Source of the DNA: Flaccisagitta enflata
Taxonomy: Eukaryota
Direction of reading: 5' to 3'
NCBI GenBank assembly: GCA_965153355.1
Contig: OZ231126.1
Span: 47,864,001 to 47,928,000, forward strand
Length of the DNA stretch: 64,000 nt
Shown here in pieces: positions 22,100 to 53,009 of this stretch. A program made the translations under genes and the position numbers. Every line of letters begins with the position of its first letter. The stretch's first letter is position 1. The notes beneath the pieces are model-generated. The model saw nothing but the letters and a program-made list of their open reading frames with translations. It was not told the origin of the DNA and did not search any database.

Positions 22100-22131
<32 letters not shown>

Positions 22132-22181
22132 TCTCTGTCTCTCTCTGTCTCTGTCTGTCTCTGTCTGTCTCTGTCTGTCTG

Positions 22182-22253
<72 letters not shown>

Positions 22254-25200
22254 AATCTTGGTCGATACAAGGGATACACTAGTGCGTGCGGTGGGCAGGG
22301 CTTTGAGGTCACTCAATCATTTGGGCAGGAGCAGTGAGGCCAAAGACCGCAAAACCCCCCAAAAAAGTAAAGTGTGATGGACCGACGGACGGACTGACGG
22401 ACGGACCAACGGACGGACACACCGACAAAGCGGGTTGTAGAGTCGCGTAGCATGCGACTAAAAATGATTTAGTCGCGTGCTACGCGAATCTACACCCCGC
22501 TTTATCCGTCGGTCCGTTGGTCGGTCCGTCGGTCCGTTTGTCCGTCGGTCGGTCGGTTGGTCTGTCCGTCACACTTTACTTTTTTTGGGTTTTTAGGGTT
22601 TTTGGGTTTTAGGGTTTTTGGCTAAAAAAATCACAAAAAATGACCATTTTCGGCGTTTTCCATTTTTACCACGTCGCTTCAAATGGTCATATCTCAGCCA
22701 TTTTTTGGAAATATGGCCTGAAATTTTTTTTGGAACCTCCAAACATCTTATATTAGCAAAATAGGAAAAAAAATTGGGGTACCCTGACCTTCAAATATTG
22801 TTTTTAGGTCAATTAACTCAAAAAACTGATTTTTTTTGAGCGATTTTTGGTTTTTGTGGCCAAATTTTCCTATGAAGCTATCTAAGGAGGGCCACAAATT
22901 TTTACATGATGGTAGTTGCATCTATAAGGAACTTCCATTTCAAATTTGAAGTCATTCCATTCATTTTTGTAGTCACAATGAAAAAAAAACTACATTTTTT
23001 TCGTTTTAGGGGCCCTTTTTGGGCCTTTTTAGGTACCCCCCAATAGCCCCATCATTATGATTCCTGTTTTTTTAATCTCTTACATCTTGTAGTGTCCCCA
23101 ACTATGAAAAAAAATGAACAGGACCCCTTTTTGTACCCAATTGTTTAAAAAAATCACAAAAAATGACCATTTTCGGCGTTTTCCATTTTTACCACGTCGC
23201 TTCAAATGGTCATATCTCAGCCATTTTTTGTAAATATGGCCTGAAATTTTTTTTGGAACCTCCAAACATCTTATATTAGCAAAATAGAAAAAAAAATTGG
23301 GGTACCCTGACCTTATAATATTGTTTTTAGGTCAATGAACTCAAAAAACTGATTTTTTTGGAGCGATTTTTGGTTTTTGTGGCCAAATTTTCCTATGAAG
23401 CCATCTAAGGAGGGCCACAAATTTTTACATGATGGTAGTTGCATTTATAAGGAACTTCCATTTCAAATTTGAAGTCATTCCATTCATTTTTGTAGTCACA
23501 ATGAAAAAAAAACTACATTTTTTCCGTTTTAGGGGCCCTTTTTGGGCCTTTTTAGGTACCCCACAATAGCCCCATCATCATGATTCTTGTTTTACTAGTC
23601 TCTTACATCTTGAAGTGTCCCCAACTATGAAATTAAACACTTGGCCTCCATTTAAGTACTAAATTTTGGCCAAAAATACCTAAAAATAGCCATTTTTGGG
23701 TGTTTTTTTGGGGCCGTTTCTAAACGCCCCCGCGTAGGGCTCTGAAAAGGTCACGGTTGGATTTCCCACATTTTTTTACACAAGATTGACCTTTTTCTAG
23801 CCTCCTTACTCAATTTTTTTTTTGCGATGAGAAATAATGCAGCTAGCTCAACTTGTGCAGGTAACGGCAGTGATTGACTCCCGAGTCCAGGCAGGTTCCC
23901 AGAATTACGTCTTACCTGTTGAGAAAGAGGTTCGTTGGTATTTTGCGCGGCTTGTCTCGATGGAATGAGGGTCGAGTTGACAAAGGCTTCGACAAGGGGC
24001 GGCACGACCGGATGCAAAGGTCCACGACACTCGCGCAACTGCCGACAAATCCAATCTTTGATCGGCACTTTGTGCTTGGCAAACGCGCGGCTTTTCAGCA
24101 ACTGATGAATGCAATGTACCGACAAGAAACCCGGAATGGCGGCGGACAGGCCTCGCGTCACGGGAACCGACACGGCCAAAGACGTCACCACCTTCTCGGA
24201 GAAAATGTCCTGCGTGAAGATGGCTTTGAGTCTGACCAGACTGTTCGATCTGACTGGGACCTTCATACCCAAAGTAGCGCAAACCAAGTCGGATATGGCC
24301 GTCATTTGATTACTGTGGAAATGAATGGCAATCAACAACAGCATTTCGCCAAAACCACCACCACCACCTCCTCCTCCACTCCCTTCATTTCCATCGCCGC
24401 GTTCGAAACGCGGCGCCTCGTTCATGAGCCACTGCAGCCACGCCGACACGCGTTTATCGTCTTCGGGGCTGGAGAACAATCCCGGACACGCGATGACCAT
24501 GGACAAGGAAAGTGAAATGAATTTCGTGCCCAAAGCCGAGATTTTAGGCCGAGAGGTTAACAAAGTCACGAGAGACGCGGATTCCTCTTCGGTGAATTTG
24601 ATGGAGGCGGCTTTGAGGGCGCAGTACAAGCGAACGAAATTGTTGGCGACGGTGAGCCGATCGTCGTCGTCCAACAACACAATCGATGATACAGATCTTT
24701 GACCTTCATCGTCATCATACTCATCGCCGTCAATATCACCGGCAATATCACCGGCGCATTTTTTCGTAGGCCGTAGGATAAGTGTCAATTGAGAGGAGAG
24801 ATTAGCGCGGAATTCCTTTACCATCTGCGAGGAGAACGAGTCTTGATGCGCGCCGGATTTCTTCTTCTGGTCGTTTCTGACGAATTGCGCGAACCAGCCG
24901 CGCGCGCTCATATCGCCGTTGAGTAAGAGTCCGGAAGAAAACTCGAGAAGGTCGTTGGGAAGCTGTAAGGAGGGAGGAGAGGAGGGAGAAGAAGAGGAAG
25001 AGGGTTCCCCTGTCGCGGTTCCTAAATTGTGCTCCAATGTTAAAGCGATTGCCAGTTCCGGGAGTCTGCCTTCGTTGACGGCCATGGCGCGAATGCTCAG
25101 CGCCTGTCGAGGGTTCATGTCGATCAACGCGCGGAGGACTTGGCAGCGTTTCCGGGTGTCGACGTCGTCGTCCGTAGTTTCACCCGTAACCATGGAAGCG

Positions 25201-26894
25201 GCGGCGCAGCGGCTTCCAATCACCAGCGAGTGACAGACCTAAGGATAGGTAGACAAACTTGTGAAAAATAAAATTCATTGCGTCAGATAACCAGTCATCC
25301 AGACTAACGCTTCAAGCCATAAATCGGGAACCCACGGAACGAATGTCTCCCCAACAATCACCTCGTGAAAAGCGTCCGCATTATTAGCAACCAAACGACA
25401 AATAAGCCAATCGCCGTTGGGCACGTGAAGCAACGTGTCAGCCAGTTCGGTGATCTGCAGCAAATTGGGCAGCTCCGCTTGCGCGATACACAAAACGTCT
25501 GATACTTCTTCCAGATATATTCCGTCTTCGAAAAGTTCGGAATTACGCCAATAGAACTCGCCGGGGTTGGAAGAAGGAGCGGCGCCGGTGGCGTCCACAG
25601 CGCCCGCGACGCCAAACGCGGCTTCCGTGGCGGCGGCGCGCAGTTTCGACATCACAAATAAAATTTCGCTCAGTACGAGACGCAATTTGCCAACGGCTTC
25701 GCTGCGTTCGAACTCGAGGGGCGTGCTTCCGCCGCTGGACGACGCGCCCGAACCGGTGGCGCCGCCACCACCGGCGACCAAATTACTGTCTTTCAACTGC
25801 GTGGCTCCACCGACTTTGCCGCGTAGCGCCAACTCCTTTTTGGCATCTTGTTCGAGAACGTGGAAATCGATAGAGAGCAGAGCGACGAGAGAGTTGACAG
25901 TTTCCACGCCGCAGAGCAGCCGCAGGATCGAACGCCGTTTGCGAGTCCACGCTTTGCCTGTGACAGTGAATGAAATTGTAACAATGCCAAGTAGGCAACA
26001 GGATGCGCCGTGTAGATCGTCAAACGTTGGCGATACCGACGGGGTGGGGGGGGGGATAAAATCAAAGGGTTAGGAGATGTGAGAAAATCACGTGCGGGTG
26101 GGCAGGGGTCACCAGATCATTTGAGCAGGAGCAATGAGGCCAAAAACCGCAAAACCCCCAAAAAAGTAAAGCGTGACAGACAGACAGACCAACCGACGGA
26201 CGGACCGACAAAGCGGGGTGTAACACGCGACTAAAAAAATCAGCTTCTGTATCAACACGAAAATCGTTCGCGTCAGATCTTTGCTTTGATTCCATGGTGA
26301 TATTTACTCTCTTTCTACTTCCGACCAACGCTTACGTAAACGCTGCTAGCTATCGTCAGTATCGCCGAAAATATTTTTTGAAAATAGATTTGAATTCATA
26401 ATTGTTAGTTCTACACGGTGATTATGCGTAGTTAAGCGAATGGGCCTAAGTATGAGCTCAGGGGATGGTATTCCGACAGCTTATAAGTTTTCTACAAAAT
26501 GTAATGATTTTCAGTGCAAAAAAAACTCACTAGTTGATCAATATGACCAAGTATGACAATCTCAAATAATAATCAAATCATATTTTAACTGTTTTCTGTC
26601 ATATGTTCCATCAGATGAGCGATTAAGAATTTTCCGCAATCTTTTTTTCCCGTCCCTTTCTCTCACGATCGCTGCAGTTTAATAGCCTACTTCTTGAAAC
26701 CCCGTTTGGGGCTGTATATATGTTGGGCTCCAATGCCTTTTCCTGTTTTTTGTGTTTCATGCATCTTCCTGTCTTTCCTGTGGTTTCATTTTGCCGAGTC
26801 TGACTTTAGCTGTCTGTCTCTCTCTCTCTCTGTCTCTCTCTGTCTCTCTCTGTCTCTCTCTGTCTCTCTCTGTCTCTCTCTGTCTCTCTCTCTG

Positions 26895-26938
<44 letters not shown>

Positions 26939-28146
26939 TCTTTTTCTCTCACTATAAATTGCGTATTATTGGATGGCGTCGTCTTTGATGTATATGCAAC
27001 GATTTTGGATCTGGATTGGATTGTTATTTGGATTTATTTGGATCTATTATCATGGATTGATCGTCTGAACCATGGGTTTCAGTTACTGGTTATAATGGAA
27101 AGAAGCGGCGTTATCGAAAGTGTAATTCGTATTATGTGTCATTTTGTATTGTTTGTGATATTTTCTTCATAATATGTGTCATTGAAAGTATTGTTCTACA
27201 TAGGAGTTACTCGCTGTTCCCAATACTTATGTCTTTTTTCTCCCTCTCTTGCAGAAAAAGAGGAAAAAACAGGAAAATAGAAAAATAGAAAAACCGCAGT
27301 GAAGTCAGAAAAAAAAGGAAAGAAAAGAAGTTTGAAAGGAATAAAAGAGAGAAAAGAGAGAAAAGAAAGAAAATATAGAAGAGATAGAAAGGAAAGAAAC
27401 AAGAACATAAGAGAAAAGTACAGAAAAAAAAGCGGAAAAAGGAAGAGAAGAAAAAAGAAAAAAAAGGGAAGAAAAAAACATTAGGAGGAAAAAAAAAAGA
27501 ATAATGGGAAAAAAAAGAAAAGAAAGAGAAAAAAAAGTGAAGCAGGGATTTCGAGAAGGCAAACAATTGGTAGAAATAACAAGGCCGGATACACCGCCAC
27601 CAGTTGCGGACGGGTGGGCAGGGGCGGAAATGCACGTTTTCACACTTTTCGACTCGTGGTCACGGACAGACGGACAGACGGACCGACGGACGGACGGACG
27701 GACGGACGGACCGACGGACGGACAAAGGCTCTTATAGAGTTGCGTGTCCGCAACTAAAAATCGGAGGAGATTAATACTTTTGGTATTATGATTAGCATAA
27801 CACAGTATGACACTATTTGAGCCATGAGGGGATGAAAAGAAAAATGATAAGAGGAGAGACGGCAATGACCCAGAAAGATTTGACCGACCAGACGGAGTGA
27901 TAGAAGTCGAAGATGAACTTCTTAATGTTAGATAAGACATCACCGCGGTATACCAAGCCGGAGCGAGGCTATAAGTGCTTTTCCGGGCACAAACATACCC
28001 TGATCAAGTGGAGAACAAAGCGACATGCGGACGAGGCTGGGTAACAGAGGCCGAAGTTCGTCCTCTCGTAAGGCTGAGAGCTCCGCAATATTCAGAGAGT
28101 CTATAGCTGCGAATACATGCGGGGGGATCATCGCGCGCGTCTCCAT
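9262..28146 (-). CDS. INTS2: Integrator complex subunit 2. About 10 exons: 28146-27999, 25957-25362, 25238-23916, ~20895-20710, ~20333-20005, 19867-19662, ~17188-16955, ~12899-12712, ~10203-9893, ~9697-9262
   Basis: Conserved blocks: ELRPLLPSLVRMSLC, VNSLVALLSIDFHVLEQDA, YLEEVSDVLCIAQAELP, FGEMLLLIAIHFHSNQ, CIHQLLKSRAFAKHKVPIKDWI, DPLTVLRCDERVFRSPP, ALVAAQDSAAVQILLE, LHQMFIADPTLAKLVHFQGYP, RAFPPLADD. Confidence 0.95.
10544..12650. mobile_element. Degenerate TIR element in an INTS2 intron with a nested TIR element at ~10892-12192
   Basis: Outer inverted repeat TTTCCACAATAAAC...TGA (~10550) / TCAG...GTTTATTGTGGAAA (~12606-12645). Inner inverted repeat GGGGGGGGTGGGGTAATGTGGGCCA / TGGCCCAAATTACCCCACCCCCCC. 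Confidence 0.55.
12963..13329. mobile_element. Tc1/mariner-type MITE
   Basis: TIRs CAATGTGTGAACCCCTAAAACTGTAGCACCCCC / GGGGGTGCTACAGTATTTAGGGGGTTCACACCTTG with TA on both sides; inner arms also inverted (TACAAGTGGTGCCACTA / TAGTGGCGCCATTTGTA). Confidence 0.7.
15020..15410. repeat. Degenerate ~10-bp tandem array (AAATGACTTA-like)
   Basis: Direct reading. Confidence 0.8.
15690..16626. mobile_element. Helentron/DINE-like element with ~140-160-bp internal tandem units, an (ACG/ACA)n tract and a terminal hairpin
   Basis: Five copies of TTTTCACTTTTAGGCTGGTAGGCTGGTTGGG. Ends in hairpin GTCCGCG-TCGGAAT-GAT-ATTCCGT-CGCGGAC followed by AAAAA. Confidence 0.55.
21024..23866. mobile_element. Fold-back element with ~780-bp inverted arms (21024-~21795 and ~23080-23866), an extra ~520-bp tandem partial arm copy (from ~22625) and nested DINE-like copies
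   Basis: CCGTTACCTGCACAAGTTG / CAACTTGTGCAGGTAACGG and CTACGCGGGGGCGTTTAGAAACGGCCC / GGGCCGTTTCTAAACGCCCCCGCGTAG, with arms colinear over hundreds of bp. Confidence 0.85.
27578..27760 (-). mobile_element. Representative of a DINE-1/Helentron-like non-autonomous family. Other copies at ~15425-15505, 21800-21870, 22280-22463, 22468-22620, 26090-26238, 44775-44995, 49785-49962, 57187-57392, 57970-58170, 59625-59778, 61030-61156
   Basis: T-rich flank, terminal hairpin AGTTGCG-GACA-CGCAACT, then CTATAAGAG and a (GTCY)n microsatellite, GCCCCTGCCCACCCGTCCGCAAC, and a GGCC...GGCCTTGTT end. No TSD. This architecture matches DINE-1/HINE elements. Confidence 0.7.
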
Positions 28147-28834: not shown

Positions 28835-29625
28835 GAGAGACAGACAGACAGAGAGAGACAGACAGACAGACAGACAAAAAGGCAGAAAGACAGTAGAAAG
28901 GCAGAACCAGTGGCTTTCGCCAAATATGTGAATCGCAGGAGCTTTGAAATATGAAGACAGAATAGAAAAAGAAAAAGTCACAACCCTCTTTCTAAAAAAA
29001 AACAAAAATAGGAAAAATAGCAAAAGCTACAACTCTCTTTTTAAATAAAAAAAGAGAAGAGATGAACAGAAAAAGAACAAGGTCAAGTGAAGGCCAATAA
29101 GTGCGCCTTGCTTGATTAAGAATTTGTGAATGAACGTTTTTGATGAAGGAAGGAAGGAAGGAAGGAAGGAAGGAAGGAAGGAAGGAAGGAAGGAATGAAT
29201 GAAAATGTGGTGAGACATCAAAGGTGACAGGAATGAAGAACTACGAAGAATCAGCCATTTTTCGCGTTTCAAATATTTGCGTGACCGACCAAACGACTAA
29301 CCGACCAACCGACTGACCAACCAACCAACGGACATGACCTCTTATAAAAGTGCGAGGACGCACTTAAAAACAGTCAAACCAAAAGAAAAAAAAGTCATAG
29401 AACAGTTTCAAAGTGAATTGCGAAACGCATTTCCCTATGAAAGACAATAACATCTTGAGAGCGATAACGATGGAACCTGAATGGAAGAAAGAGACACACA
29501 TTCTACGCTCAGATATTTATTTTTATTTAGGCGAGCAATGCGAATGAAGGTTATCATTATAAACTCAAAAGAAAAGACCATAAACTCATTCAAAACACTA
29601 TCATAAGCTTCCAACCAAAATAACC
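28147..29625. promoter_or_regulatory. Head-to-head region between INTS2 and DRC1; likely divergent promoters
   Basis: Divergent ATGs at 28146 (-) and 29626 (+). Positional inference only. Confidence 0.5.
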
Positions 29626-30573
29626 ATGGCCACGGATGATCCCATTCCCACGGTAGAGTCGGAAGATCCCGAAGAGCGCATTACGGCACGACGGGGTCGC
29701 ATCTTCAAACGGATCGAAGCCGCTCGTCGAGAGGCGATGGGCGAAGATCCCAACGCCGCCAACGAAATCCGGGAAGTCGCCAGCAAAAGCAAATTGCAGA
29801 TCGAGGACAGTCGGAAACGGTTGGCCAAACTGGTCGCCGATGGAACCGAATTGGTGACGAATATTCAAGTCGCCGGCGACGCTCGTGAGGGTCAACGCCG
29901 AAATGAAGAGGAGGAGACGCGAAGGCAACGGAGAGAAAGGCTCGAAAACGAAGCCAAAACAAGTCTCGAGAAGTTTGAAGAAATCGTCAAAAAATGGGAT
30001 TTGAACGGGACCAAAGAAATCCCTCAAGAACTTCACGAGACGCTCAACGCACAACGCGATCAATGTGACGCAATGATACAAGTAAGTGAATAGCGAGCGG
30101 CTATCTTTTCCTTTTCATGTTTGTTGTTGTTGTTGTTATTGTTGTTATTGTTGTTATTGTTGTTGCTGTTGTTGTCGTTGTTATTTATGTTGATGTTGTT
30201 TTTTCTGTCGGTCATTTTCTGTCATCGCTTCTTGTTCCTCTATTTCTTGTGGTTGTTTCTGGTATTGTTTTTTTTTTTCTTTTTTCTTTCTCTTTTTCTT
30301 CATTTCACCTTTTTTTTCTTCTTCCTCTATTTTTTGCCGTTTCGTCTTCTTTTTCTCGTTTTTTTCTTTTTTGTTCCTCTCTTTTTCTTTTTCTTTATCT
30401 TCTTTTTCTTTTTCTTTTTCTTTTTCTTTTTCTTTTTCTTCTTTTTCCTTTTCTCTCCATATTCTTCTTTTTCCTTTTCCTATTGTTGTTTTTACTTATC
30501 GCTTTTTTTCTATTTCGTCATCGTCATCTCCTTCATCTTCTTGACTTCTACTTTTCTTTGTTCTTTGTTGTTT

Positions 30574-30639
<66 letters not shown>

Positions 30640-31290
30640 TTGTTGTTGTTGCTTTTGTTGTTGTTGTTTTTGTTGTTGTTGTTATTATTGTTTTTGTTGT
30701 TGTTGTTATTGTTGTTGTTGTTGTTGTTGTTGTTCGCGTTCGCGTTCTTGTTGCTTGTTGTTGTTGTTATTTCAAGAATTCCTTTCCTTTTTTTATTTTG
30801 CTCTCCTTATTCTCTTCTGTTGTTGTTTTTGTTGTTGTTGTTGTTGTCGTTGTCGTTGTTGTTGTTGTCATCGTCATAGAAGTCGTTATTAAATGTTGTT
30901 GTGTTTCTTATGCTTCTTTTCCTTTCACTGAGTTTTCCTTCTCAATTTCCTTTTCTTCTGTTTTAAAATGATGATTATCAATTAAAAATCACTCTCTGTT
31001 TCTCTCTTCCTAAACCAGGATAAGAATCAACTCATCAACGATTTTCAAATGGAATTGAAGAATCGCGACGATCAGTACGTACGCGATCTCAAGAAGCAAG
31101 CCGAGGATATCGATCTGATGATCGAACGAATGGACGAACAGATCAAGAATCTAATGAAGGCTTATCGAGAAGAGCTGGACGAGATCGAAAAGGCTTTCGT
31201 AGAGGAAAGAAATGAATTGTTGAACGATCAAAGAAGCGCCTGGGAGTCCACGATGGGAGATCGTCAGGAAAAGGTACTTTTACGCATCCG

Positions 31291-31383
<93 letters not shown>

Positions 31384-31445
31384 GCCTTTTGTTGCTGTAG
31401 TTCTTGTTGTAATTTTTGTTGTTGTCGTTGATGGTTGTCGAATTT

Positions 31446-31494
<49 letters not shown>

Positions 31495-31561
31495 CGTTAA
31501 TGCCGTCTTTATCGTCATTGTTGTTGTTGTTGTTGTTGTTATATCGTTGTTGTTGTTGTTT

Positions 31562-31607
<46 letters not shown>

Positions 31608-33418
31608 AGTTGTTGTTGTTGTCGTTGTTATCATTGTCGTTGTCTACCGTTGTAGCCATTGTCGTTATTGTCGTTTTTATCGTCATTGTTGTTGTTGTTG
31701 TTGTTGTTGTTGTGTTGTTGTTGTTGTTTTATCGTTGTTGTCCGGCATCATAACTCTTATATTTCTTTAAATTACTTTCAACTCAATAGGAAAACGACTT
31801 CATGCAGTCGCGCGAAAGGCGGGTGGAAGATTACGAGAAGCAGATCCAACTTCTCCGCGTGCAAGACGCGGAAGAGTACAACAACGTCAAGCGCAAGCTG
31901 GAATCTGACGTGACAATCCTTGAGCAGCAGTTGCAGCAAATGAAGGCGACCTATCAGCTGAATCAGGAAAAGCTCGAGTACAATTTCCAAGTGTTGAAGA
32001 AACGCGACGAGGAGAACACCATCACCAAGTCCCAGCAAAAGCGGAAAATAACGAGACTGCAGGACAACCTCAACAACCTGAGGCTGAAAATCGGCCGACA
32101 AGAGAAAGGTTACCGCGACGAGAACACGCAGCTGACAGACGACTACAAGCGGATCACGCAGCAGTTCAAGGATTTGCAGAAAAAGTCGCGTCATTTTATG
32201 GCCGCCGACGTTGACAAATTCGGCCAAGTGTGGCGCATGAACGAGACCGAGTGCAAAGAGTTGCTCGGCGCCGTCATGGAGTGTGATCGAGTCATCACCG
32301 AGCATCAATTGGGGAAAAACTGGATCACGCCGGATTTGTCGTTCCTCGAAAACGAAGGCCCGATCGTGAGCGAGAAGAGCAAAAAACAATCCGTCTCCGC
32401 CAATCAAGTGTTGCAAGAAGTTCTGACGACCGATTCCGCGTCTGAAGGCGGAATCTCCAAAAGTCGCAAACCCCCCACGACGACCGCCGCCGACGAAACC
32501 ACCGAGACAGCGGCGGGGGTGGACGTCGACGACGGATTGTCGACGAGCAAATTATTCCGGAAAATCTCGACGGAGACTGTGAAGAAGATCCTCGAGCTTC
32601 TTTGCGACGAAGGCGGTTTCTTGGTGGAATCGCGCCTTCATCGCATCCTCGCGCCTTTGGATCGATACGAACAGTCGATGATCCGACTCGACGCCATTTT
32701 TTTGGCGCTCGGAATCGAGACGGAAGACGACATCTTCAAACTTACCCAATATTTCATGAGGATGAAAATGCCGGAAGAGGAGGGGGAGGCGGATGGCGAT
32801 GGAGGAGGAGGAGAGGCCGATCACCAGGGCAACGCCGGTGAAGCCGGTGATTCGGCGGAAGAACAAAATCATCAGCGTCGAAAGACGCCAGGAAGCGAAT
32901 CTTTACCAGAGACTTCGTCGGATTTTGGCGCCGATGAAGAGGATCCGCTGGAAGATGGAACCGGAAGTCCGGGAGGGGGAAGAGGAGACGAAGAAAGTCA
33001 AGAAATCATTCTTGATGAAGGCAACGCCGAGTTGGTGCATCCCAACGACGTCCTCAAGGCGATGAAGGCGTTCGTCGAATCGCATCCCAAGTTCCAACAA
33101 AAGGCCACTTCCAAGAGTCATTCGTTTCAAATCGCCGTTTTGGATGAAAGGGACGATTCCGAGGACACGAAATATTGGAAACTTTATTCCAACGCGCTCT
33201 CCGATGTCAAGAAGAAAACGTGGGACGCCATGAAAGAAGGAATGGAGAGATACAAACAAACGTTGACGCAAAGATCCAAATTGTTGACGGAAACTGACGC
33301 GCTGCGTCAACAAAACGCCGAACTGCGGCTTTTGCTGCAACAATACATTCACAGCAAAGTCAACGGCGAGTTGGAAATACCGCCGACCAGAATCTTGCAA
33401 TACGAGGGTGGGAAATGA
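29626..33418 (+). CDS. DRC1: Dynein regulatory complex subunit 1 (CCDC164). Exons 29626-30081, 31019-31273, 31790-33418 (~779 aa)
   Basis: PTVESEDPEERITARRGRI, DGTELVTNIQVAGDARE, ELKNRDDQYVRDLKKQAEDIDLMIERM, LEQQLQQMKATYQLNQEKLEYNFQVLKKRDEEN and C-terminal LRQQNAELRLLLQQYIHSKVNGELEIPPT. Confidence 0.96.
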
Positions 33419-33920: not shown

Positions 33921-36900
33921 ATGTATAAACTCGATCTTCCCCTCGATCAAAAAGAGCAGGCGGCGATTGAAAGGAGGAGAAATCAGGTAGATAAAAAATT
34001 GTATATAGTAAAAAAATTTTGATCAAAGATGTATTAAAAAATTGTAGTAGTAATGATAAATTATCTCGATTTTTAAATCTTTATAGAGATTTTTCCGATG
34101 AGTCTTCCAACACTTCTCTTTCCCTTTTCTCCCATCTAATCAGGAATTAGCGCGTCAAAGTCGCATCTTTAACGCCAAAGTTCGAACTATCGGAGTCGAT
34201 GTCGATGCCATCACCCAGCAAGCTGAGGACAAGAAACGACGGTTAGCTCGTATTCATTCTTCTGTTTGCAGTGTCTAAACTGAGTTTATCCAGTGAAGGG
34301 CGCCGACTAGTCTATGAACTTAATTCAACTTGTCATGTGACAGTTTTTTGCATCGAAATGTAGTTCATCTTTCTATTTTGCTCATAAATCAATTCTGCCG
34401 TCGCCAGGGAGGAACGCGAGAGACTGCGCAGCGAGGCGTTCGCTTCCGACGCCGTTCGCGCGGACAAAATCGCCGTACTCTTGGAACAAAGACAAGATCA
34501 CGACAGACGCATGATCAATCAATCCGAAAATGCTTACAGGTACTAACGCTCTTAGACGCCTATTTCGATTGCTTCTTCAGACTTCCGGTGAGCGTTCGTT
34601 CACCATCCTTTGGACACTCCTCTCCTCGTGCTACATATACGGCTGCTCATCCAATGGCGATGCAACAATACTTGTCTTTGTCGGACGGGAGGCGCGCGCA
34701 GTAGTGAAGCAGAAACAATGGAACACAGGCCGATCGGAGTACATCAAGACAAATTCAAGAAGATCGTTTGTATAAATTCGGAAACTCGGAATGCATGAAA
34801 ATACGATTCAAGAAACTCGTATGTATAAATGGAAACGCAAGGAACTCTCGTCGACAAGCTTGTATCATTTGAAGTGTTCCTCCCGTTCTGTTTGACGAAT
34901 ATTTGTGCTCCTGTCACAGTCCGAGTGTGTTTTGCTTGTCTCCCGGGGCCTACCCTGCCCCCAAATATCTCTTTCTCTGAATTTCAGGCGTTTCGACTTC
35001 GTTCTTTCTTGGAGTTGCGCCATGGGGGATGTTCCGTGTGGCTGGCACATGCTTCATCACTGCTGATAGTCTTTGGGTCATTGGCGTCCCTGTGGTGTCT
35101 TGCATCGGTCCCCTCCGAGCATGCGCGCCTAGCGCATTTGCCCTCTGAGGCTGATGGAAGTTGTGCTTCGGTTCTTGCCGAGCGAACACATTGTGTTGGT
35201 CCTCTGAGGCTGATGGAAGTTGTGCTTTGGTTCTTGCCGAGCGAACACATTGTGTTGGTCCTCTGGACGTGTGGTCTGTTTTGGCATCGGTCTTCCCAAG
35301 CGAACACATTGGAAGTTGTGCATTGGTTCTTGCCAAGCGAACACATTGGAAGTTGTGCATCGGGTTTTGCCGAGCAAACACATTGGGAAATGTGCATCGG
35401 TTCTTGCCGAGCGAACACATTGGAAGTTGTGCATCGGTTTTTGCCGAGCAAACACATTGGAAGGTGTGCATCGGTTCTTGCCGAGCAAACACGTTGTGTT
35501 GGTCCTCTGGACGCGTGGTCTGTTTTGGCATCGGTCTTCCCGAGCATGCGCACCTGGCGCTTTTGCCTTTTGAGGCATATGGAAGTTGTGCTTCGGTCCC
35601 TGCCGAGCGGACACGTTTTGTGTTGGTCCTCTGGACATGCCGTCAGTTTCAGCATCGGTGATTTCCGAGCATGCGTTATTTGCGCGTTGGCTCTTGTAAG
35701 AGCGGTATGGCATGTGGTTGCGGAGTAACAGGGTGACAACCAGCGAAGGCAGTGGTATCAAAGCATCTGGTCCCCCACAAGTTTGGGGAGTCGTCCGGCG
35801 CGGCAGAGGTGGCCCTAGTATTTTGGCCAGGGTAATGTCTTAGTTGCTGCCAGAGTGGGTGCTCTTATACGGCCCTTTGTCATGTGTGCATCAGTTCCGG
35901 TATTTGATGAGGTTTTTCTATGTGATCTGGGATAGGGTGGGCTTTTTCAGGCATAATTTAGGTGGGTTTGGGGTTTCCCTTGTCCCCTAGGAGTAGATCT
36001 GTCTTCGCTGGAAGGAGGTGTTCCTCCCAATTTTGTTCAGCGGTTTTCCCGCGGGGCTTGTCCGTGCGATGAGGTGAGAAAATATTTGGGCAAAACATGA
36101 CCCTTGTTACATTCAGGCACAGTGGGCCTTAATTGGATACAGGTTCAAAAAAATCCTCAGCGGTAGTGACTTGTATAAATAGGTACATTTTGTAGTGAAG
36201 AATTGATATTGATCCTTAAAAAAAGATTTCCCCTTAAAATTTTTGCAAAAATCACTAAAATGTGTCCATTTTCTTATATAATTATATATAGATCTCAATG
36301 ATCTATCAATTTTGAAATTCTGATTCAGGATTCATATTCCTGGTAAAATTTCCAATCATTTGATAGGTCACACTATATACTTTCATATGAAAATAAAATT
36401 TTCATATTTTAGTCTACCGTTACCAAAATGCGACGGTAGCGTAAAATATGAGAATTTTATTTTCACGTAAAAATATATAGTGTGACCTATCAAATGATTG
36501 GAAATTTTACCAGGAATATGAATCTTGAATCAGAATTTCAAAATTGATAGATCGTTTAGATCTATATATGAGTATATAAGAAAATGGACACATTTCAGTG
36601 ATTTTTGCAAAAATTATCAAGGGAAATTTTTTTTTAAGAGTTAATATCAATTCTTCACTATAAAAAAAACGTATTTATACAAATCTCTACTGCTGAGGAT
36701 TTTTTTGAACCCATATCCAATTAAGGCCCACTGTGCAGGGGTGCCCTCCTCATCTTTCGGTTTTGTTACGGCCAGTCTGAAGAAAACACCCTATATAGGC
36801 CGAGCGGTAGGCATCGGTTTTCGGCATCGGTCATTCCGAGCGTTCCGCTTTTTGTTGGGCCGAGCATGGCATCAGTTTTCAGCCCGGTAAATAGTGCTCA

Positions 36901-39900
36901 TTTTGCTTTGGTATATTGTGGCATCGGCAATTAAATCCGAGCGGTTTGATATAATGGCATCGGTAATTAAATCCGAGCGGTTTGATATAATGGCATCGGT
37001 AATTAAATCCGAGCGGTTTGATATAATGGCATCGGTAATTAAATCCGAGCAGTTTGATATAATGGCATCAGTAATTAAATCCGAGCGGTTTGATATAATG
37101 GCATCGGTAATTAAATCCGAGCGGTTTGATATAATGGCATCGGTAATTAAATCCGAGCGGTTTGATATAATGGCATCGGTAATTAAATCCGAGCGGTTTG
37201 ATAAGCATCGGTGATTCCGAGCGATTTGATGTGAAAGCATCAGTGACTATGTGGCCCGTATGGATATTTTGCGTCTGTGGTTCCGTGCTTTCTCAGGTGA
37301 GTGGGAGTGAGTATGGTGCTCCAAGCATGCACTTGATGTGCGAAAGTCCACAGGTGAGTGTGCATATTGTGCTTGCAGATTGGTGGCTACATGTGAGTGG
37401 AAGTTGTGGTTCCCTCATTTTGCGTGCTGGTCCTTATGGCCAAACCAAGAGTTTTGGGCATCCGCATGGTGCCGCATTTGGCTCCAGCGGTTATGTGTTG
37501 CGTGCTGGTACAACGTGATTGCAGCTTGTGCTGGTGGCTGGCCTATGGTTTTGCATAATGGATTTGTGATCTTATGGGGTTTCAGGTCTTGGAAGCTCTG
37601 CTGCATCTTTGTTTTCGTGGTTTCTATAAGCCTATGGCCTTCAAGAAGGGTTTGTGGCCTTGATGGACCTACGGCCATCATTTTCGTGTTGGAACATCAG
37701 ACAGTAGTAATTTGCGCCCCCTGGTTGTTAGATTTGCATGCACAACATGACAAAATTGGAATGTCAAGTGGGAAAAGCATGGGAGATTAAATTACAGCAT
37801 TATGTTGAGCATTTGAACAATTCTCTTACTGCGGATGGAAAAAGTGTCAAGTTTTTCAAAGTTATTGGCGGCCGTCGCAAGCGAAGAATAGCGTGTTTTC
37901 CGATTAATTGACTCACTGACTTAGTGACTAGCGACTAGTGCACGGTGATCAAAACAGTTTTTCTTTTTCTCTCTCTACAAATGGTTTCTTAGTATCACAA
38001 AATCCTTAGTCTTTGCTCAGAGAATAATCACTGATATTATTTGCACTTATGAAAGCATCATATTTGGATGAATTTATAGTCTTCATTTTTATATATCAGA
38101 AAGTCGTTGAATTTAGGTGAAAATGCAACTTTTTCCTTCACTGATTTCCACTGATTTTTAATAGTAGTGACTGGTCAGTTTTGAATATTTCAAACATGGT
38201 ATTTCATTTTTTAGGAGTTGCATGGTAAGAACACTCACTTTTGGTTCTCAAGAACTACTGACTGGTTAATTTCCTTTGCCACGTAAATTGTAATTGTTGT
38301 TGCGGCTGCCATCTCGTTGGGCAACTTGATTCGTGGCCTTGATGGATTTGTAACCTCATTGGATTTGTGGCCTTGTTGGATCTGTGGCTTTGCTGAGTTT
38401 ACGGTCTTGATGGGTTTGTGGACTGCGATAGTTTGTGGCCTTAAGGAATTTGGGCCTGAGTGTGTTTTTGACCTACCAAACACGTGCCCTGACCGGATGG
38501 GTGCCTTGCTGTGTTGTGGCCTAAAATGGGTTGTCTTGCTGGATCCAAGCCGTGGCCGGTTTTGGATTGCCCCTGGATTTGGATCCTCGCTGGATTTGGA
38601 TCCTTGCTGGATTTGGTTCCTCGCTGGATTTGGTTCCTCGCTTGATTTGGTTCCTCGCTGGATTTGGTTCCTCGCTGGATTTGGGTCGTCGCTGGATTTG
38701 GGTCGTCGCTGGATTTGGGTCGTCGCTGGATTTGGGTCGTCGCTGGATTTGGGTCGTCGCTGGATTTGGGTCGTCGCTGGATTTGGGTCGCCGCTGGATT
38801 TGGGTTGTCGCTGGATTTGGGTCGTCGCTGGATTTGGGTCGTCGCTGGATTTGGATTGTCGCTGGATTTGGATCGTCGCTGGATTTGGGTCGTCGCTGGA
38901 TTTGGGTCGTCGCTGGATTTGGCACCCTCGCTGGATTGGCGCCCTCGCTGGATTGGCCTCCTCGCTGGATTGGCCTCCTCGCTGGATTGGCAACCCTACT
39001 GGATTGGCGTCCTCGCAAGATTGGCGTCCCTGCTGGAATGGCGTCCTAGCTTGATTAGCGTCCCTGCTGGATTGGCGTCCTCGCTGGATTGGCGGCCTCG
39101 CTGGATTGGTGGCCTCGCTGGGTTGGCGTCCTCGCTGGATTGGTGGCCTCGCTGTATTGGTGGCCTCGCTGGATTGGCGTCCTTGCTGGATTGGTGGCCT
39201 TGCTGGATTGGCATCCTCGCTGGATTAGCTCCCTCGCTGGTTGGGCGTTCTTGCTGGATTGGCTCCCTCGCTGGATTGATGGCCTCAATAGATGGGCATC
39301 CTCGCTGGATCGGTGCCTTTGTTGGATTGGCGCCTTCGCCGGATTGGCGTCTTTATTGGATCGGCATCCTCGCTGGAGTGGCTCCCTCGCCGGTTTTATT
39401 GGTGGCCTCGCTGGATTGGCGTCCTTGCTGGATTGGTGGCCTAGCTGGATTGGCGTTTCTACTGGATTGGCGTCCCTGCTGGATTGGCGTCCTTGCTGGA
39501 TTGGCGTCCTTGCTGGATTGGCGTCCTTGCTGGATTGGCGTCCTTGCTGGATTGGCGTCCTTGCTGGATTGGCGCCCTTGCTGGAATGACGCCCTTGCTG
39601 GATTGGCAACATATTTGTATTGACTCTGGAAATCTGGCCTCCTCAAGATGTAAATGTTTGCCTTTGGTTTATTCACATGTGTTACATGTAGCATGGAAGG
39701 GGGTAGTGTTGAAGCAGAATATGTTGGTGGGTGTATCAGTTGGCGAATGGTTGTGACCTTCCCCAGACTCCTGCAATTTTGCAAATGTATCCCTGGAGTT
39801 TATTCACATGTGTTACATGAAGCATGGGAAGTAACAATATTGAGGCAAAATGCGTTAGTGAGCGTTTAATTGATAAGTGGACTTCTAGTTGATTGCCATC

Positions 39901-42091
39901 ACTTCCTCTTTTCATTCTTTGGCATTTGTTCGTTTGAGTGTGATCTATACATAGTGACGCATCATTTCAAGGATCGGAGATTTTCTGTGAAACGCCTGGA
40001 AATTATTCACATGTGTTACATGTCGCATGATGAAATGCCTAAGTTTATCCACATGTTTTACATGTAGCATGGTGAAATGCCTAAGTTTATTCACATGTGT
40101 TACATGTCGCATGGGAGTATATTGAAGCAGAATGTGTTAAGCGTGCGCCTGTAGTAGCCATTGATCACTTCCAAAACTCACATTCTCGATACAAACAGGC
40201 CTGTGTTGGAACATATGACTAGAACAATCACTTTATCTCTTACGGATTTCTTTATGGTTGACAGGCGGATTTCTTTATGGTTTACACACGCGGACACAAA
40301 CAGATTTGAAATTCATGTCTTCACAAATCATAATGATGCAATCTGTATATAGTGGGGCATCGTTTAAAGGATCTTAATTTCTTCACATGTCTTACATGTC
40401 GCATGGTAAAATGCCTGAAATTTCTTCACATGTGTTACATGTCGCGTGGTAAAGAGCCTTAGATTTATTCACATGTTGCATGTCGCGTGGTAAAATGTTG
40501 AAGAAAGGTGTGTTGGTAAGCGTTTTGGTTGCAAAGAGACTGTTAGTTATTTGGCAATGTCTCTTTCTTTCGTCCTTTAGCATATATTTGCGTGAATCTT
40601 TGCCTTATAGATGAGATATCGTTTTTACTTGTTGGTGTCGTTGTCGTTTTGTCGCCGTTTTCATCGCCCATCTCCTTTGTCTCAGCTTCCTGCGATAGTA
40701 TTGTCATTTCCTTGTTTCAGAGTTGGGCAAGTGCCGATGCCTTTATTTTCTCGAGTTTTGAAATTCATGTCTACACAAATGACGGTAATGCGTTATGTAT
40801 ATAGTGACGCTTCGTTTGGTAATCGAAGGTTTTTGTAAAATGCCCTTAATTTCTTCACATGTTTTACATGTCGCGTAGTGCAATCCCTAAAATCTCTCCA
40901 CATGTGTTACATGTTGCGTGGTTAAGTGCTTGATGTTTATTCACCTGTTTTACATGCCGCGGGGTACAACCTCTAGAATTTCTTCACATGTGCTACATGT
41001 TGCATGATAAAATTGTTAAAAATTGCCTAAAATCGCCTGAAATTTATTCACATGTTTCACATGTCGTGCTGGAAAATTGCCTAAAATTGCCTGAGATTGC
41101 CTAGAATTTCTTCACATGTTTTACATGTCGCGTGGTGAAATATTGAAACAATGTGTTAGTAAGCATATATTCGCCTTATAGGTCAGAAATCGTTTTCGCC
41201 TTGTCGCTTTGTCGCCGTTCTCGTCGCCCGTTTCCTTCGTCCTAGCTTCCTGCGATGGCATTGTCATTACTTTGTTTCAGATCTGGGTAAGTATTGGGTG
41301 GTATCTTCAAGCTGGCCTCTCAGACTGGAATCTGAGTGGGCTGTGGGACGTTGCGTCGGGATATCCGCGCATTACTCATACAGGCAAGTCTGAAGAGGAA
41401 ACGACATTGTTGAACTATAGCGCACGCAATATTCAACTATTTCGATTGCTTCTTCAGACTTCCGGTGAGCGTTCGTTCACCATCATGCAGGAAGCTACAG
41501 CTTGAGTAGACGAAGGATATGGATGGAGCAGCCGGGGCCCGCGGGCCCTGATAATCTTCTCTTGCTTCTATCTTAGGTTCGCGTCATACAAGAACAAGCA
41601 AGAGACTAATTTTCACCCCCCCTCCCTTCCCTTCTCCCTCCCCTGTTTTCGTCGTTTCCTTTCATATCGACGATCTCCGGGGTCGGCGTCGGGATATCCG
41701 CGCATTACTCATACAGGCAAGTCTGAAGAGGAAACGACATTGTTGAACTATAGCGCACGCAATATTCAACTATTCATTTGGGTAATGGTTGATGAACCAA
41801 AAATTCGATAGTGATTTGACCAACCTCCAGATAAAGCTAAGAACCCCTGAAAATCATGACATCTTCAGATTCCTGAATCAGCAAGCGGATGGACGCCGAG
41901 AGTGGGATCTTTACGATCCTGACGCTAAACTAAAGGACAAGCCAGCAAGAGTCGCCGATGATGATCCCAGATGTGGACCGGTAAGGAATTGTTGATCTCG
42001 GGATGAAGAATTTTAGGTTGAGTGGTGCCACACTGGACGAGTAAGCAAAAGCGAAAGAAGAAAAAGAAAACAAAACACAAAAAAGAAAAAA

Positions 42092-42125
<34 letters not shown>

Positions 42126-42207
42126 AGAAGAAGAAGAAGAAGAAGAAGAAGAAGAAGAAGAAGAAGAAGAAGAAGAAGAGAAAAAGAACAACAACCACAA
42201 CAACAAT

Positions 42208-42242
<35 letters not shown>

Positions 42243-42329
42243 CCACTACAACAATAACAACAACAATAACAACAACAATAACAACATCAACTACAACCAC
42301 TACAGCAACAACAAAAACAAAAAGAAGTT

Positions 42330-42360
<31 letters not shown>

Positions 42361-44672
42361 TATATCTCCACAGCGAACAGGAGAACTTGAAAGAGAATCA
42401 GCAACAAAAACAACAATTGCAAAAAAAAAAAAAAAAAAGAAACAAGAAAAAAATGAAGAAAATGTTATTTATTGTATTTTTTTTAGGCTTCCATCCAAAA
42501 ATTTGAAGGCGAAGATCTCAACACGAAAGCCAGAGTAGCCTACCAAAGGGAGCAAAATAGAGAATGGCTAGACGCCCAGGTAAGTTTCTCTTTAGCACTG
42601 CTTCTTTTCATTTTGTTTCATTTTGTTTCAAACCGCAAAGCTTTTTTTTTATCTTTTCGCCGCGTTTGAATCAGGGGTGTTTAAAGTTGAATGGCTCTTG
42701 ATTTCTTTCCCCCCCTGGTCTTTGATTTCCTTCCCCGCCCAGTCAAAAAATTGTTTGATTTTCTACCCCATAGAGTATAAATATAGTATGAATATTGTCA
42801 GAATTGTGGGAAATAATGTTGTAGGAGTGAATTAGTATTTTTCAGATCTGTCAAAGTGTAATATCTTCTAAAGTTTTGGTTTTTCTTCTTTTCCACCCTT
42901 TGATTTTTTTCCCCATCTCCAAACCCTTTGATTGTATTCCACCCCACGGGGTGGGGGGGGGGGGAATGCTCAACTTTATACACGCCTGGTTTGAATCAAT
43001 CTCTCTATTTCTCCCACACTACGCACAGGCCAAAGAAAAAGATCTCCACAAAGAGCGTCAGTCCGAGGCAGACCGACTTTACGACTTGAAGCGAATCGAA
43101 CTCGACGTCCGCGCTTTGGAATTGGAGGCCCTGGAAAGGCAGACCAGACGACAAATCAAAATGGCCACCGACAATTACAACGTCGCATTAGCCAAGGACG
43201 TCGAAACTAGAAGAAGTCAGGATAAACAGGTGTGATTTTATGAATGTTTGTTGATCGGATTGATTGACAGATAAAGTGATTGATTGGCTGAGAACCGAAA
43301 TTTTAGTGTTTGACTGGTTGTTTGGATGCCGGAAGTCAATGACCAGAAGAGTCAGAAGAATCTAGAAAAGAAAAACTGAATGTTTGGTTGATTGAAGTAT
43401 TCGAGTTTTAAGTGATTTGATAACTGATTGATTGATATGTCGTAAAAATATGGTCGATTCCGTTTCTTGAAAACTAAGTTGAAATAAGAAAATCGCCCTG
43501 ATGGCGGGAATTCTATTGATACAAGTTATCAGCTGCTACCTTGAAAGTTGATGTGGTATTAATTGTTAAAGCTGCAGGGGGGGGTTGCTGAAGATTTTGG
43601 CTGCTCCTCTCATTGTATTTTCACTGCCTCTGTAATAAAAATGATCATTCCAATGAGAGCCTAATCGGGAGACCTGATATCTAACATTGGCCTGATATCT
43701 AACATTGGCTCTGATATCTAACATTGATCATTGATCATTGATCATTCCAATGAGAGCCTAATCGGGTGACCTGATATCTAACATTGACCTGATATCTAAC
43801 ATTGGCCCTTAACTACTTGGGTAAGGAGTTTTCTTTTGGGTTAGAATGAGAGGGAATGTTATTCAAATTCAGTTTTATGGAAAACTAGGAGTGTTGCGCG
43901 TAGTAACTAGTCAGTGAGGGCTCACAAGGCCCTCTTCCATTTATTTCAGTTTGGGTATAGTGAGGGATGTTGTTCCACCTATCATTATCATAAGTAACTT
44001 TTGTATGTTTTGTTTGCTTTTAGATGTTCATTTGGTTTTTGTAAACATTTTCTTCGAGTTTTGTGTAAGATACTCTTTGTTGTATATTTCATGACAGGCT
44101 CAGGAAGACGACAATTTGACGGAAATCGCCAACCACGTCTACGGCGACGTTTTGACGGAAAACCCCGACGTGGCTCGCAGCGCCTTTGGACCGCACCGCG
44201 TCGTCCCCGACAGATGGAAGGGCATGAATGCCGATCAACTGGAAGTCATCAAAAACACTCAGGTAACGCCTGATGAACGATTTAATTTAAAAAAAAAACC
44301 CAAAGAAGAAAGAAAGAGAGGAAAAAAAAGAAAGAAAAAAAAAGAAAGAAAAAAAAAGAAAGAAAAAAAAGGAAAGAAAATAAGAAAGAAAGAAAGAAAA
44401 AGAAGGAAGGGAAGAAATAAATGAAAGAAAGAAAAAAATGAAAGAAAGAAAAAATGAAAGAAAGAAAAAAATGAAAGAAAGAAAGAAAGGAAAGAAAGAA
44501 AGAAAGGAAAAATGAAAGAAGAGAAAAAAAAGAAAGAAAAAATGAAATAAAGAAAGAAAGAAAAAATAAAATAAAAAGTGAAAGAAAGGAAAGAAAAAGT
44601 GAAAGGAAGAAAGAAAAATGAAAGAATGAGAGAAAGAAAAAAAGAAAGACATACAGACAGTAATACAGCAGG

Positions 44673-46132: not shown

Positions 46133-46487
46133 TTTCATTTCCGATCTTGAAGCGGTCTATTCGCGCACGATAACCTTTCTCGATAATAGCGATGTTTTTG
46201 TTTGAATTGGGACGAACATGCAAGTTTGCAGTACGATTTTGGATCCGTTTTTCGCTAACGGATAGCGACATCTTTAATCACAAAGCCACCGAATCATGTA
46301 CATAAACTTTGTGTAATTTTTTTTCCATGCGCTTTTTTTCTAACAGGACGTTACAAAAATAACAAAATACGATTGGCGTGCAAAGTTCTTTCCTTATTTT
46401 CTTTACAAAAAAAAAAACTTGAATAAAACGAATGACTTATTGATTTGACCCTAAGCCAAGAACGACCCTTTATAAGCACTCGCAATC

Positions 46488-53009
<6,522 letters not shown>

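What the first reader, a model, noticed from the sequence alone, without database searches (positions are those of the whole stretch)
34560..41774. 7.2-kb non-coding element with perfect split direct repeats (A1...B1-A2...B2), inserted at a CTATT core in RIBC intron 3
Seen: A (48 bp) and B (89 bp) each occur twice with no mismatches. The internal B1-A2 junction is exactly the sequence produced by joining the element's two ends. The shared CTATT sits at both host borders, and removing the element leaves a ~120-bp intron similar to its neighbours. Known: this order of split direct repeats is the hallmark of Ngaro/PAT tyrosine-recombinase retrotransposons, which integrate from a circle. Inference: this is a recently mobilised, large non-autonomous YR element whose cargo is tandem-repeat arrays rather than gag/RT/YR.
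Basis: partly seen in the sequence, partly recalled or inferred. Interest (0 to 1): 0.8.

Follow-up and report, generated by a model that had tools for sequence, protein, structure and literature searches.

The report
Non-coding mobile element with split repeats
A 7.2-kb non-coding mobile element sits in an intron of a cilium gene, and its split end repeats, seen in the same order in other copies, best fit a helper-dependent relative of tyrosine-recombinase retrotransposons.

Summary
A (48 nt) and B (89 nt) each occur twice without a mismatch. B1 and A2 overlap by CTATT, and CTATT sits at both host borders. Removing 7,210 nt leaves a 119-nt GT-AG intron 3 of a RIB43A gene. The element has no recognisable protein domain in 78 of 78 frames tested.

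New evidence:
- A protein search with the frame across X-end/B1/A2/Y found 4 unnamed records, and 4 of 4 read X-end, B, A, Y in that order. One is a diverged copy. The split order is therefore a family trait, not a chance tandem landing.
- An 11-nt motif occurs four times in + - + - orientation (A1, B1, A2, B2). This makes the B/A junction a strong hairpin (z = -6.0).
- The ends are ATT, the commonest end trinucleotide of DIRS1-like elements.

Best reading (0.55): a non-autonomous split-direct-repeat element of the DIRS order, inserted from a circle at (CT)ATT. Main rival (0.2): a composite of two Helentron/Helitron2-like rolling-circle elements, whose end architecture it also resembles. No recombinase, reverse transcriptase or Rep gene was found. 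The host genome could not be searched.

The parts
34540..41868 (+). Intron 3 of the RIB43A-family host gene; 119 nt once the element is removed
   Evidence: GT-AG borders. The flanking exons match Pfam RIB43A positions 49-91 and 95-129.
34560..34564 (+). Left copy of the CTATT core (host/element border)
34560..34607 (+). A1, left terminal repeat (48 nt including the core)
   Evidence: 100% identical to A2.
34574..34584 (+). 11-nt motif TCTTCAGACTT, copy 1 (+), inside a 22-nt imperfect inverted-repeat arm (34565-34586)
   Evidence: 4 matches in the window against 0.06 expected..
34587..34604 (+). Small hairpin GGTGAGC/GTTCACC at the inner end of A (repeated at 41464-41481)
   Evidence: fold. 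On its own it is not significant (z = -0.75 for A alone).
34608..41352 (+). X, the long unique body (6,745 nt). It is non-coding and holds tandem arrays at 35142-35496, 36919-37203, 38328-39607 and 40003-41130. It also holds a diverged duplication, 40302-40732 / 40754-41292.
36117..36736 (.). Foldback inside X: two 304-nt arms, 90% complementary, 12 nt apart, ends GCACAGTG...CACTGTGC, with AG on both sides. Probably a nested small inverted-repeat element.
41311..41352 (+). X-end, the stretch just before B1. It is conserved in all four related records (reads AGLSDWNLSGLWDV).
41353..41441 (+). B1, internal copy of the right terminal repeat (89 nt including the core). The 11-nt motif lies on the - strand at 41386-41396; the palindrome GTTGAA...TTCAAC is at 41409-41437.
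41437..41484 (+). A2, internal copy of the left repeat. It overlaps B1 by CTATT (41437-41441). The 11-nt motif lies on the + strand at 41451-41461.
41485..41685 (+). Y, the short unique body (201 nt). It has no similarity to X. Its first part is conserved in the related records, including the diverged one.
41686..41774 (+). B2, right terminal repeat. The 11-nt motif lies on the - strand at 41719-41729, the palindrome is at 41742-41770, and the right CTATT core is at 41770-41774.

Best explanation
This is one copy of a family of non-autonomous elements built like the split-direct-repeat members of the DIRS order (PAT, Ngaro, VIPER type), the tyrosine-recombinase retrotransposons.

**Shown**
- The unit is core-A-X-B-core-A-Y-B-core.
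- The internal B/A junction is the sequence that joining the two ends would give.
- That internal junction, flanked by X-end and Y, is kept in other copies.
- The ends and the target share CTATT, ending in ATT, with no separate target duplication.
- A 22-nt arm at the very start of A is the inverted complement of a stretch inside B. The junction is therefore a quasi-palindrome, and the 11-nt core motif lies + - + - along the element.

**Inferred**
- The element is copied by enzymes of an autonomous relative supplied in trans.
- The internal B1/A2 copy is used to rebuild complete ends and close a circle.
- The circle junction recombines with a matching (CT)ATT in the target, leaving one core at each border.
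- Whether the copy passes through RNA is not shown.
For: 1. The split order is exact.
2. It is a family trait. The frame 41182-41502 found 4 proteins among 7 candidates, and 4 of 4 read X-end, B, A, Y start in that order. Identities are 91, 96, 87 and 51%. None shows B followed by unrelated flank.
3. Y is conserved even in the 51% record (RRIWMEQPG, 9 of 9).
4. DIRS-order definitions match.
   - Ngaro is described as A1-[ORFs]-B1A2B2, with solo AB units (PMC8547959, passages).
   - PAT has A1-B1-A2-B2 repeats (PMC4157794, passages).
   - VIPER's A2-30 bp-B2 unit equals SIRE (PMC6681497, passages).
5. In 23 of 28 DIRS1-like elements the ends are NTT, most often ATT. They recombine with an identical genomic sequence and make no target duplication (PMC3266345, passages). 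This element begins and ends with CTATT.
6. The same paper reports a sequence of at least 10 nt shared by both terminal inverted repeats (ITRs) and both internal complementary regions (ICRs). Here the 11-mer is at 34574 (+), 41386 (-), 41451 (+) and 41719 (-). That is 4 matches against 0.06 expected, and 0 of 100 shuffles reached 4.
7. The junction folds strongly: DNA -28.4 kcal/mol, z = -6.0, 0 of 200 shuffles as stable; as RNA -52.1 kcal/mol.
8. The internal complementary region is essential for DIRS-1 retrotransposition (PMC7192593, abstract and passages).
9. Non-autonomous precedents exist: TOC1 (PMC9940879, passage) and SIRE.
10. In the 51% record, codons imply a change on both sides of one pair of the inverted repeat. 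B changes from GAA to GTN and A from TTC to CAY, so the A:T pair becomes T:A (inferred from protein, no DNA seen).
Against: - No reverse transcriptase, RNase H, recombinase or gag remnant was found: 0 of 78 frames in the element, and none in 74 further frames of the window (12, 62).
- No autonomous partner is known.
- A (48 nt) and B (89 nt) look short next to the repeats I recall for such elements (recalled, not checked).
- There is no AATAAA or ATTAAA in A, B or Y on either strand.
- The end architecture (5' T/TC, subterminal inverted repeat, 3' palindrome a few nt from the end, insertion at a TT) is what the literature gives for Helitron2/Helentron elements.
- The window holds at least 8 ends of a small Helentron-type family.
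- The four related records are unnamed short contigs (698-1,934 bp), seen only as predicted proteins. Their outer ends are unseen, and one (P0241, identical over the last 73 residues) could be an allele of this very locus.
- The search was seeded with the junction frame, so it favoured junction-bearing copies.
Confidence: 0.55

Rival explanations
1. A composite of two non-autonomous rolling-circle elements of the Helitron2/Helentron (HINE) type that share ends: a long one (A-X-B) and a short one (A-Y-B). They lie head to tail and are now copied as one unit. CTATT would be the nick motif, used both at the element's 3' end and in the target, as in IS91-family elements.
For: - A perfect 11-nt inverted repeat links A and B. 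The chance expectation is 0.0007; alignment score 24 was reached by 4 of 3,000 shuffles of A and 17 of 3,000 random window pairs.
- The 3' arm is followed by a palindrome that ends 4 nt before the end.
- The 5' end is T/TC, and the empty site contains TT.
- The element is non-coding, and tandem arrays make up 32% of it.
- Definitions agree:
  - Helitron2 asymmetric terminal repeats and 3' hairpin (PMC3627910, section 'Features of Helitron2 elements').
  - HINE subterminal repeats of 11-13 bp, 3' stem-loop, TT target, central repeats (PMC4067079 and PMC7492417, passages).
- Head-to-tail pairs of different Helitrons with perfect junctions are known in maize and bat (PMC2267711, PMC5876387, passages).
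- In IS801 and IS1294 the target tetranucleotide next to the origin end equals the cleavage tetranucleotide at the terminus end (PMC13181058, passages).
- A typical small HINE-like family is present in the window.
Against: - 4 of 4 related records keep B followed by A and Y, including a diverged one. A working internal terminator and origin should mostly release single units, and none was seen.
- The perfect 5' repeat starts 9 nt inside the end rather than 0-2 nt.
- The 5' hairpin does not include the repeat, as the definitions require.
- The extra CTA shared with the target beyond the T's is unexplained unless the nick motif is specific.
- The small HINE family of the window shows no such flank mimicry.
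- No Rep/helicase gene is in the window.
Confidence: 0.2
2. A one-off accident: two independent elements with the same ends, of whatever class, happened to land next to each other at this site.
For: Consecutive insertions giving a perfect head-to-tail junction are documented for maize Helitrons (PMC2267711, passages).
Against: The same X-end/B/A/Y arrangement is present in 4 of 4 other records.
Confidence: 0.03
3. An element that makes a 5-bp target duplication (an LTR-type or terminal-inverted-repeat transposon), with CTATT as the duplication.
For: Five bp is a common duplication length for LTR elements and some DNA transposons (established knowledge, recalled).
Against: - CTATT also lies in the internal B1/A2 junction and is part of both repeats.
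- The 338-nt A-Y-B unit is not present whole at the 5' end, so there are no LTRs.
- The ends are not TG...CA.
- The inverted repeat is subterminal and asymmetric, not terminal.
Confidence: 0.03
4. Not mobile DNA: an assembly artefact or a local duplication within the intron.
For: Perfect repeats can arise from mis-joined haplotypes.
Against: - The junction holds no host flank.
- Removal restores a 119-nt GT-AG intron between exons that are adjacent in the RIB43A profile.
- Related but non-identical copies exist in independent records.
Confidence: 0.02

Closest known systems
Ngaro / VIPER / PAT-like split-direct-repeat retrotransposons (DIRS order)
   Same: - The order A1...B1A2...B2.
- The internal junction equals the joined ends.
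- There is no target duplication.
- A short A-spacer-B unit sits at the 3' side, as in VIPER/SIRE.
   Different: - There is no gag, RT/RNase H or recombinase.
- A and B are short.
- The spacer between A2 and B2 is 201 nt.
- An inverted repeat links A and B.
DIRS1-like elements (inverted terminal repeats plus internal complementary region)
   Same: - The ends are ATT.
- A motif of at least 10 nt is present in both termini and twice in the internal junction, in + - + - orientation.
- The junction region is able to pair with both ends.
   Different: - The internal junction here is a direct copy of the ends, not their inverse complement.
- The inverted arms are only 22 nt (11 perfect), against 31-304 nt of conserved ITR.
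TOC1 (Chlamydomonas) and SIRE (Trypanosoma cruzi), non-autonomous relatives of DIRS-order elements
   Same: Non-coding derivatives that keep the terminal repeat system.
   Different: - They come from a green alga and a kinetoplastid, not an animal.
- SIRE is about 0.4 kb.
- I did not read TOC1's repeat layout; only its classification was seen.
Helentron-associated interspersed elements (HINE, DINE-1) and Helitron2
   Same: - Non-coding.
- An 11-nt subterminal inverted repeat.
- A 3' palindrome near the end.
- T-rich borders at a TT.
- Internal tandem repeats.
   Different: - A conserved internal 3'-end/5'-end junction is not part of that family's description.
- The 5' repeat is offset from the end.
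- The 5' hairpin does not involve the repeat.

Membership tests
DIRS order, split-direct-repeat type (PAT / Ngaro / VIPER) | Repeats ordered A1 ... B1A2 ... B2, with A1=A2 and B1=B2 | tested here: met
   48 nt and 89 nt, both pairs 100% identical.
DIRS order, split-direct-repeat type (PAT / Ngaro / VIPER) | The order is a property of the family, not of one locus | tested here: met
   4 of 4 related records read X-end, B, A, Y. Their outer ends were not seen.
DIRS order, split-direct-repeat type (PAT / Ngaro / VIPER) | No target duplication; a short sequence shared by the circle junction and the target | tested here: inconclusive
   one CTATT at each border and one in the junction. Only this one insertion site could be examined.
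DIRS order, split-direct-repeat type (PAT / Ngaro / VIPER) | Encodes reverse transcriptase / RNase H | tested here: not met
   0 of 78 frames. If it is a member, it can only be a non-autonomous one.
DIRS order, split-direct-repeat type (PAT / Ngaro / VIPER) | Encodes a tyrosine recombinase | tested here: not met
   0 of 78 frames; none elsewhere in the window.
DIRS order, split-direct-repeat type (PAT / Ngaro / VIPER) | An autonomous partner with the same A and B repeats exists in the genome | not testable with these tools
   No eukaryotic genome collection was on hand.
DIRS1-like | Inverted terminal repeats, with an internal region complementary to both ends | tested here: inconclusive
   22-nt imperfect arms and the 11-mer in + - + - order. 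But the internal junction is a direct copy of the ends.
DIRS1-like | Element begins and ends with NTT (mostly ATT) | tested here: met
   against Table 3 of PMC3266345.
Helitron2 / Helentron (HINE) | Asymmetric or subterminal inverted repeats of 8-15 bp: the 5' one 0-2 bp from the end, the 3' one 20-30 bp from the end and upstream of a hairpin | tested here: inconclusive
   - The perfect 11-mer starts 9 nt after CTATT.
- The imperfect pairing reaches the first base after the core.
- The 3' arm ends 37-45 nt from the end, and a palindrome follows it.
Helitron2 / Helentron (HINE) | A 5' hairpin or inverted repeat that involves the 5' terminal repeat | tested here: not met
   the only hairpin in A lies next to the repeat and does not include it.
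Helitron2 / Helentron (HINE) | Insertion at TT or a T-rich site without target duplication | tested here: met
   the empty site reads ...CTATTCATT...
Helitron2 / Helentron (HINE) | Unit bounded by one 5' end and one 3' end | tested here: not met
   the internal 3'-end/5'-end junction is kept in 4 of 4 related records.

The most novel reading that the evidence does not exclude
The element may be an architectural intermediate between the two repeat systems of tyrosine-recombinase retrotransposons. Its internal junction is a direct copy of the joined ends, as in PAT/Ngaro. Because the junction is a quasi-palindrome, it is also complementary to both ends, as in DIRS1.

A bolder corollary: the folded single-stranded junction hairpin itself could be the recombinase's substrate, as in integron attC sites (recalled, not checked).
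Probability: 0.2. Interest if true: 0.7.

Novelty: new variant of a known kind. Interest (0 to 1): 0.5.

Why it matters
- Non-autonomous derivatives of tyrosine-recombinase retrotransposons are described for very few lineages. TOC1 and SIRE are the two I met in the papers read.
- If the best reading holds, this would be a large, apparently recently amplified animal example. Its body is about one third tandem arrays, so it would be a vehicle that spreads satellite-like repeats into genes.
- The palindromic junction gives a concrete, testable handle on how such elements rebuild their ends.
- If the rolling-circle rival is right instead, the lesson is practical. The split-repeat pattern alone does not identify a recombinase element, and annotation pipelines can confuse the two classes.

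Tried and rejected
- **Other copies in the window:** none. A blastn of the element against the window gave 111 matches, 0 of them outside the element. Y has no relative in X.
- **Coding remnants:** none. The best hit, PspC at 25.8 bits, lies in the translated 17-mer array and is an artefact of repetition.
- **RNA families:** 3 sub-threshold hits, none near its gathering score. There are no tRNA genes in the window.
- **An autonomous partner in the window:** none among the 12 frames and the 62 frames (62 of the 85 low-complexity-filtered frames listed). Most of the other 23 overlap genes already named or lie across the element's borders.
- **Second database search:** the frame across Y/B2/host flank, run against 1.84 billion representatives, gave 3 hits at E<=0.001. 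Two were P0242 and P0243, matched through B only; the third was an unrelated 888-aa protein. That frame has no ATG, so gene callers would rarely predict it, and the blank says little.
- **Canonical Helitron1 ends (5' TC, 3' CTRR, A/T target):** the 3' end and the target do not fit.
- **Minus-strand orientation for the rolling-circle reading:** rejected, because the palindrome would then precede the 3' repeat.
- **Host identity:** left at 'a protostome animal without a close named relative'. The best named hits to DRC1 are nemerteans at 54-55% and molluscs at about 53%. The best hits to INTS2 are arthropods at about 46%.
- **Goodwin & Poulter 2004:** not held. What I say of that work is recalled.
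- **The prokaryote genome scan:** left unused, as it cannot bear on an animal element.
Full report
**Observation**

The repeats are as described. A (48 nt) lies at 34560-34607 and 41437-41484. B (89 nt) lies at 41353-41441 and 41686-41774. Both pairs are 100% identical, occur nowhere else on either strand of the window, and do not extend further.

B1 and A2 overlap by CTATT, and the same five bases stand at both host borders. The body between A1 and B1 (X, 6,745 nt) and the body between A2 and B2 (Y, 201 nt) are unrelated.

**Host gene**

The host gene is a RIB43A-family gene:
- Exon 3 (34408-34539) matches Pfam RIB43A positions 49-91 and exon 4 (41869-41980) matches 95-129.
- Seven exons join in frame without a stop, and all introns are GT-AG.
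- Intron 3 is 7,329 nt, and 119 nt without the element.
- Introns 1 and 2 are 157 and 166 nt. Introns 4 to 6 are 506, 449 and 868 nt.

The window is from an animal. It carries a CARD-caspase, INTS2, DRC1 and RIB43A. The closest named relatives reach only 46-55% identity.

**Content of the element**

No frame of the element has a recognisable domain: 0 of 78 stop-to-stop frames of 45 aa or more. Tandem arrays take 2,330 of 7,215 nt. A 620-nt foldback is nested in X. Rfam and tRNA scans gave nothing above threshold. No part of the element recurs elsewhere in the window.

**Two mechanisms give the same picture**

- Split direct repeats are the described layout of Ngaro, PAT and VIPER (passages of PMC8547959, PMC4157794 and PMC6681497).
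- Two different Helitrons lying head to tail with a perfect junction look the same, and are documented in maize and bat (PMC2267711, PMC5876387, passages).

I therefore looked at the ends themselves. Three features emerged:
- The first 22 nt after the core pair imperfectly with B positions 31-52, with a perfect 11-nt centre.
- That 11-mer occurs exactly four times in the window, at 34574 (+), 41386 (-), 41451 (+) and 41719 (-). The expectation is 0.06.
- The B1+A2 stretch folds as single-stranded DNA at -28.4 kcal/mol, z = -6.0, with 0 of 200 shuffles as stable.

The last 33 nt of B hold a palindrome that ends 4 nt before the end. This resembles the Helitron2/Helentron end architecture (PMC3627910, section on Helitron2 features; PMC4067079 and PMC7492417, passages).

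The window also holds a typical small family of that kind. At least 8 5' ends and 3 complete copies were found, and one copy has a matched change in both subterminal repeats. In IS91-family elements, the target motif beside the origin end can equal the cleavage motif at the terminus (PMC13181058, passages). That could account for CTATT on both sides.

**Family evidence**

Searching the protein collection with the frame that runs through X-end, B1, A2 and the start of Y found 4 proteins among 7 candidates. All come from unnamed short contigs. All four read X-end, then B, then A, then the start of Y.
- P0241 is identical to the window over its last 73 residues but differs upstream, with a 4-residue indel.
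- P0242 and P0243 differ within B and A.
- P0244 is only 51% identical, yet keeps the order and a well-conserved Y.
- No record shows B followed by unrelated sequence.

The internal junction is thus part of the family's unit. A chance tandem landing is excluded unless all four records are alleles of this locus. A rolling-circle composite would have to ignore its own internal terminator and origin over a long period.

**Fit to DIRS-order elements**

Three further facts fit this reading:
- 23 of 28 DIRS1-like elements begin and end with NTT, most often ATT. They are thought to recombine with an identical genomic sequence, without target duplication (PMC3266345, passages and Table 3). This element begins and ends with CTATT.
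- That paper reports a sequence of at least 10 nt shared by both terminal inverted repeats and both internal complementary regions. The + - + - order of the 11-mer here is the orientation such a motif would have.
- The internal complementary region is essential for DIRS-1 retrotransposition (PMC7192593, abstract and passages).

In P0244, the codons imply a two-sided change that keeps one pair of the inverted repeat. This is inferred from protein only.

**Verdict**

Best reading (0.55): the element is a non-autonomous, split-direct-repeat member-like relative of the DIRS order, integrated from a circle at (CT)ATT. The palindromic junction is an unusual addition.

Main rival (0.2): a Helentron-like composite that is copied as one unit.

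Not shown:
- any recombinase or reverse transcriptase;
- any RNA intermediate;
- any empty allele;
- the outer ends of other copies.

Zero differences in 137 nt bounds the divergence of the repeat pairs only to below about 2.2%.

**What stayed unchecked**

- A genome-wide census of copies, their borders and an autonomous partner.
- The supplementary tables of the papers cited, which were not opened. They are not needed for the claims made here.

Noticed in passing
5' ends at 44771(+), 49781(+), 57185(+), 27763(-), 58174(-), 21875(-), 59780(-), 61160(-); complete copies about 49781-49975(+), 59780-59595(-), 27763-27560(-): A small (about 170-215 bp) repeat family with the layout described for Helentron-associated elements:
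- a T string;
- a 10-nt subterminal repeat with its own inverted partner;
- a (GTCY)n microsatellite;
- a matching 3' repeat;
- a GGCCG...CGGCC palindrome;
- a TTGTT end.

One copy has matched changes in both repeats (AGTCGCGGAC / GTCCGCGACT).
   Followed up: partly
window 36117-36736: A foldback nested in the element: 304-nt arms, 90% complementary, 12-nt loop, ends GCACAGTG...CACTGTGC, with AG on both sides. It looks like a small inverted-repeat transposon inserted into X.
   Followed up: partly
window 21158-21741, 22623-23108 and 23124-23707: Large inverted repeats (584 nt at 96% and 486 nt at 95% complementarity) lie between INTS2 exons. They probably belong to another transposon or a foldback structure.
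   Followed up: no
window 29584-33418 (+), 33921-44421 (+), 46476-46850 (+): Three genes for axoneme or sperm-tail proteins lie in a row on one strand: DRC1 (NYD-SP28 domains), the RIB43A gene, and a CH_2 'CH-like domain in sperm protein' gene.
   Followed up: no
window 39649-41151: Arrays of 42-64-nt units share the core TTCACATGTGTTACATGTCGCATGG, which holds two ACATGT palindromes. They sit within a diverged duplication of roughly 430-540 bp per copy (40302-40732 / 40754-41292). One related record (P0241) carries the same upstream motif.
   Followed up: partly
window 3324-4300, 22006-22309, 26729-26994, 42083-42359 and others: The window is very rich in microsatellites: (GA)n, (GAGAGAATGAGAGA)n, (GAAA)n, (TC/TG)n, (AAG)n, (AAC)n. 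Some lie inside long open frames, which are artefacts of repetition.
   Followed up: no
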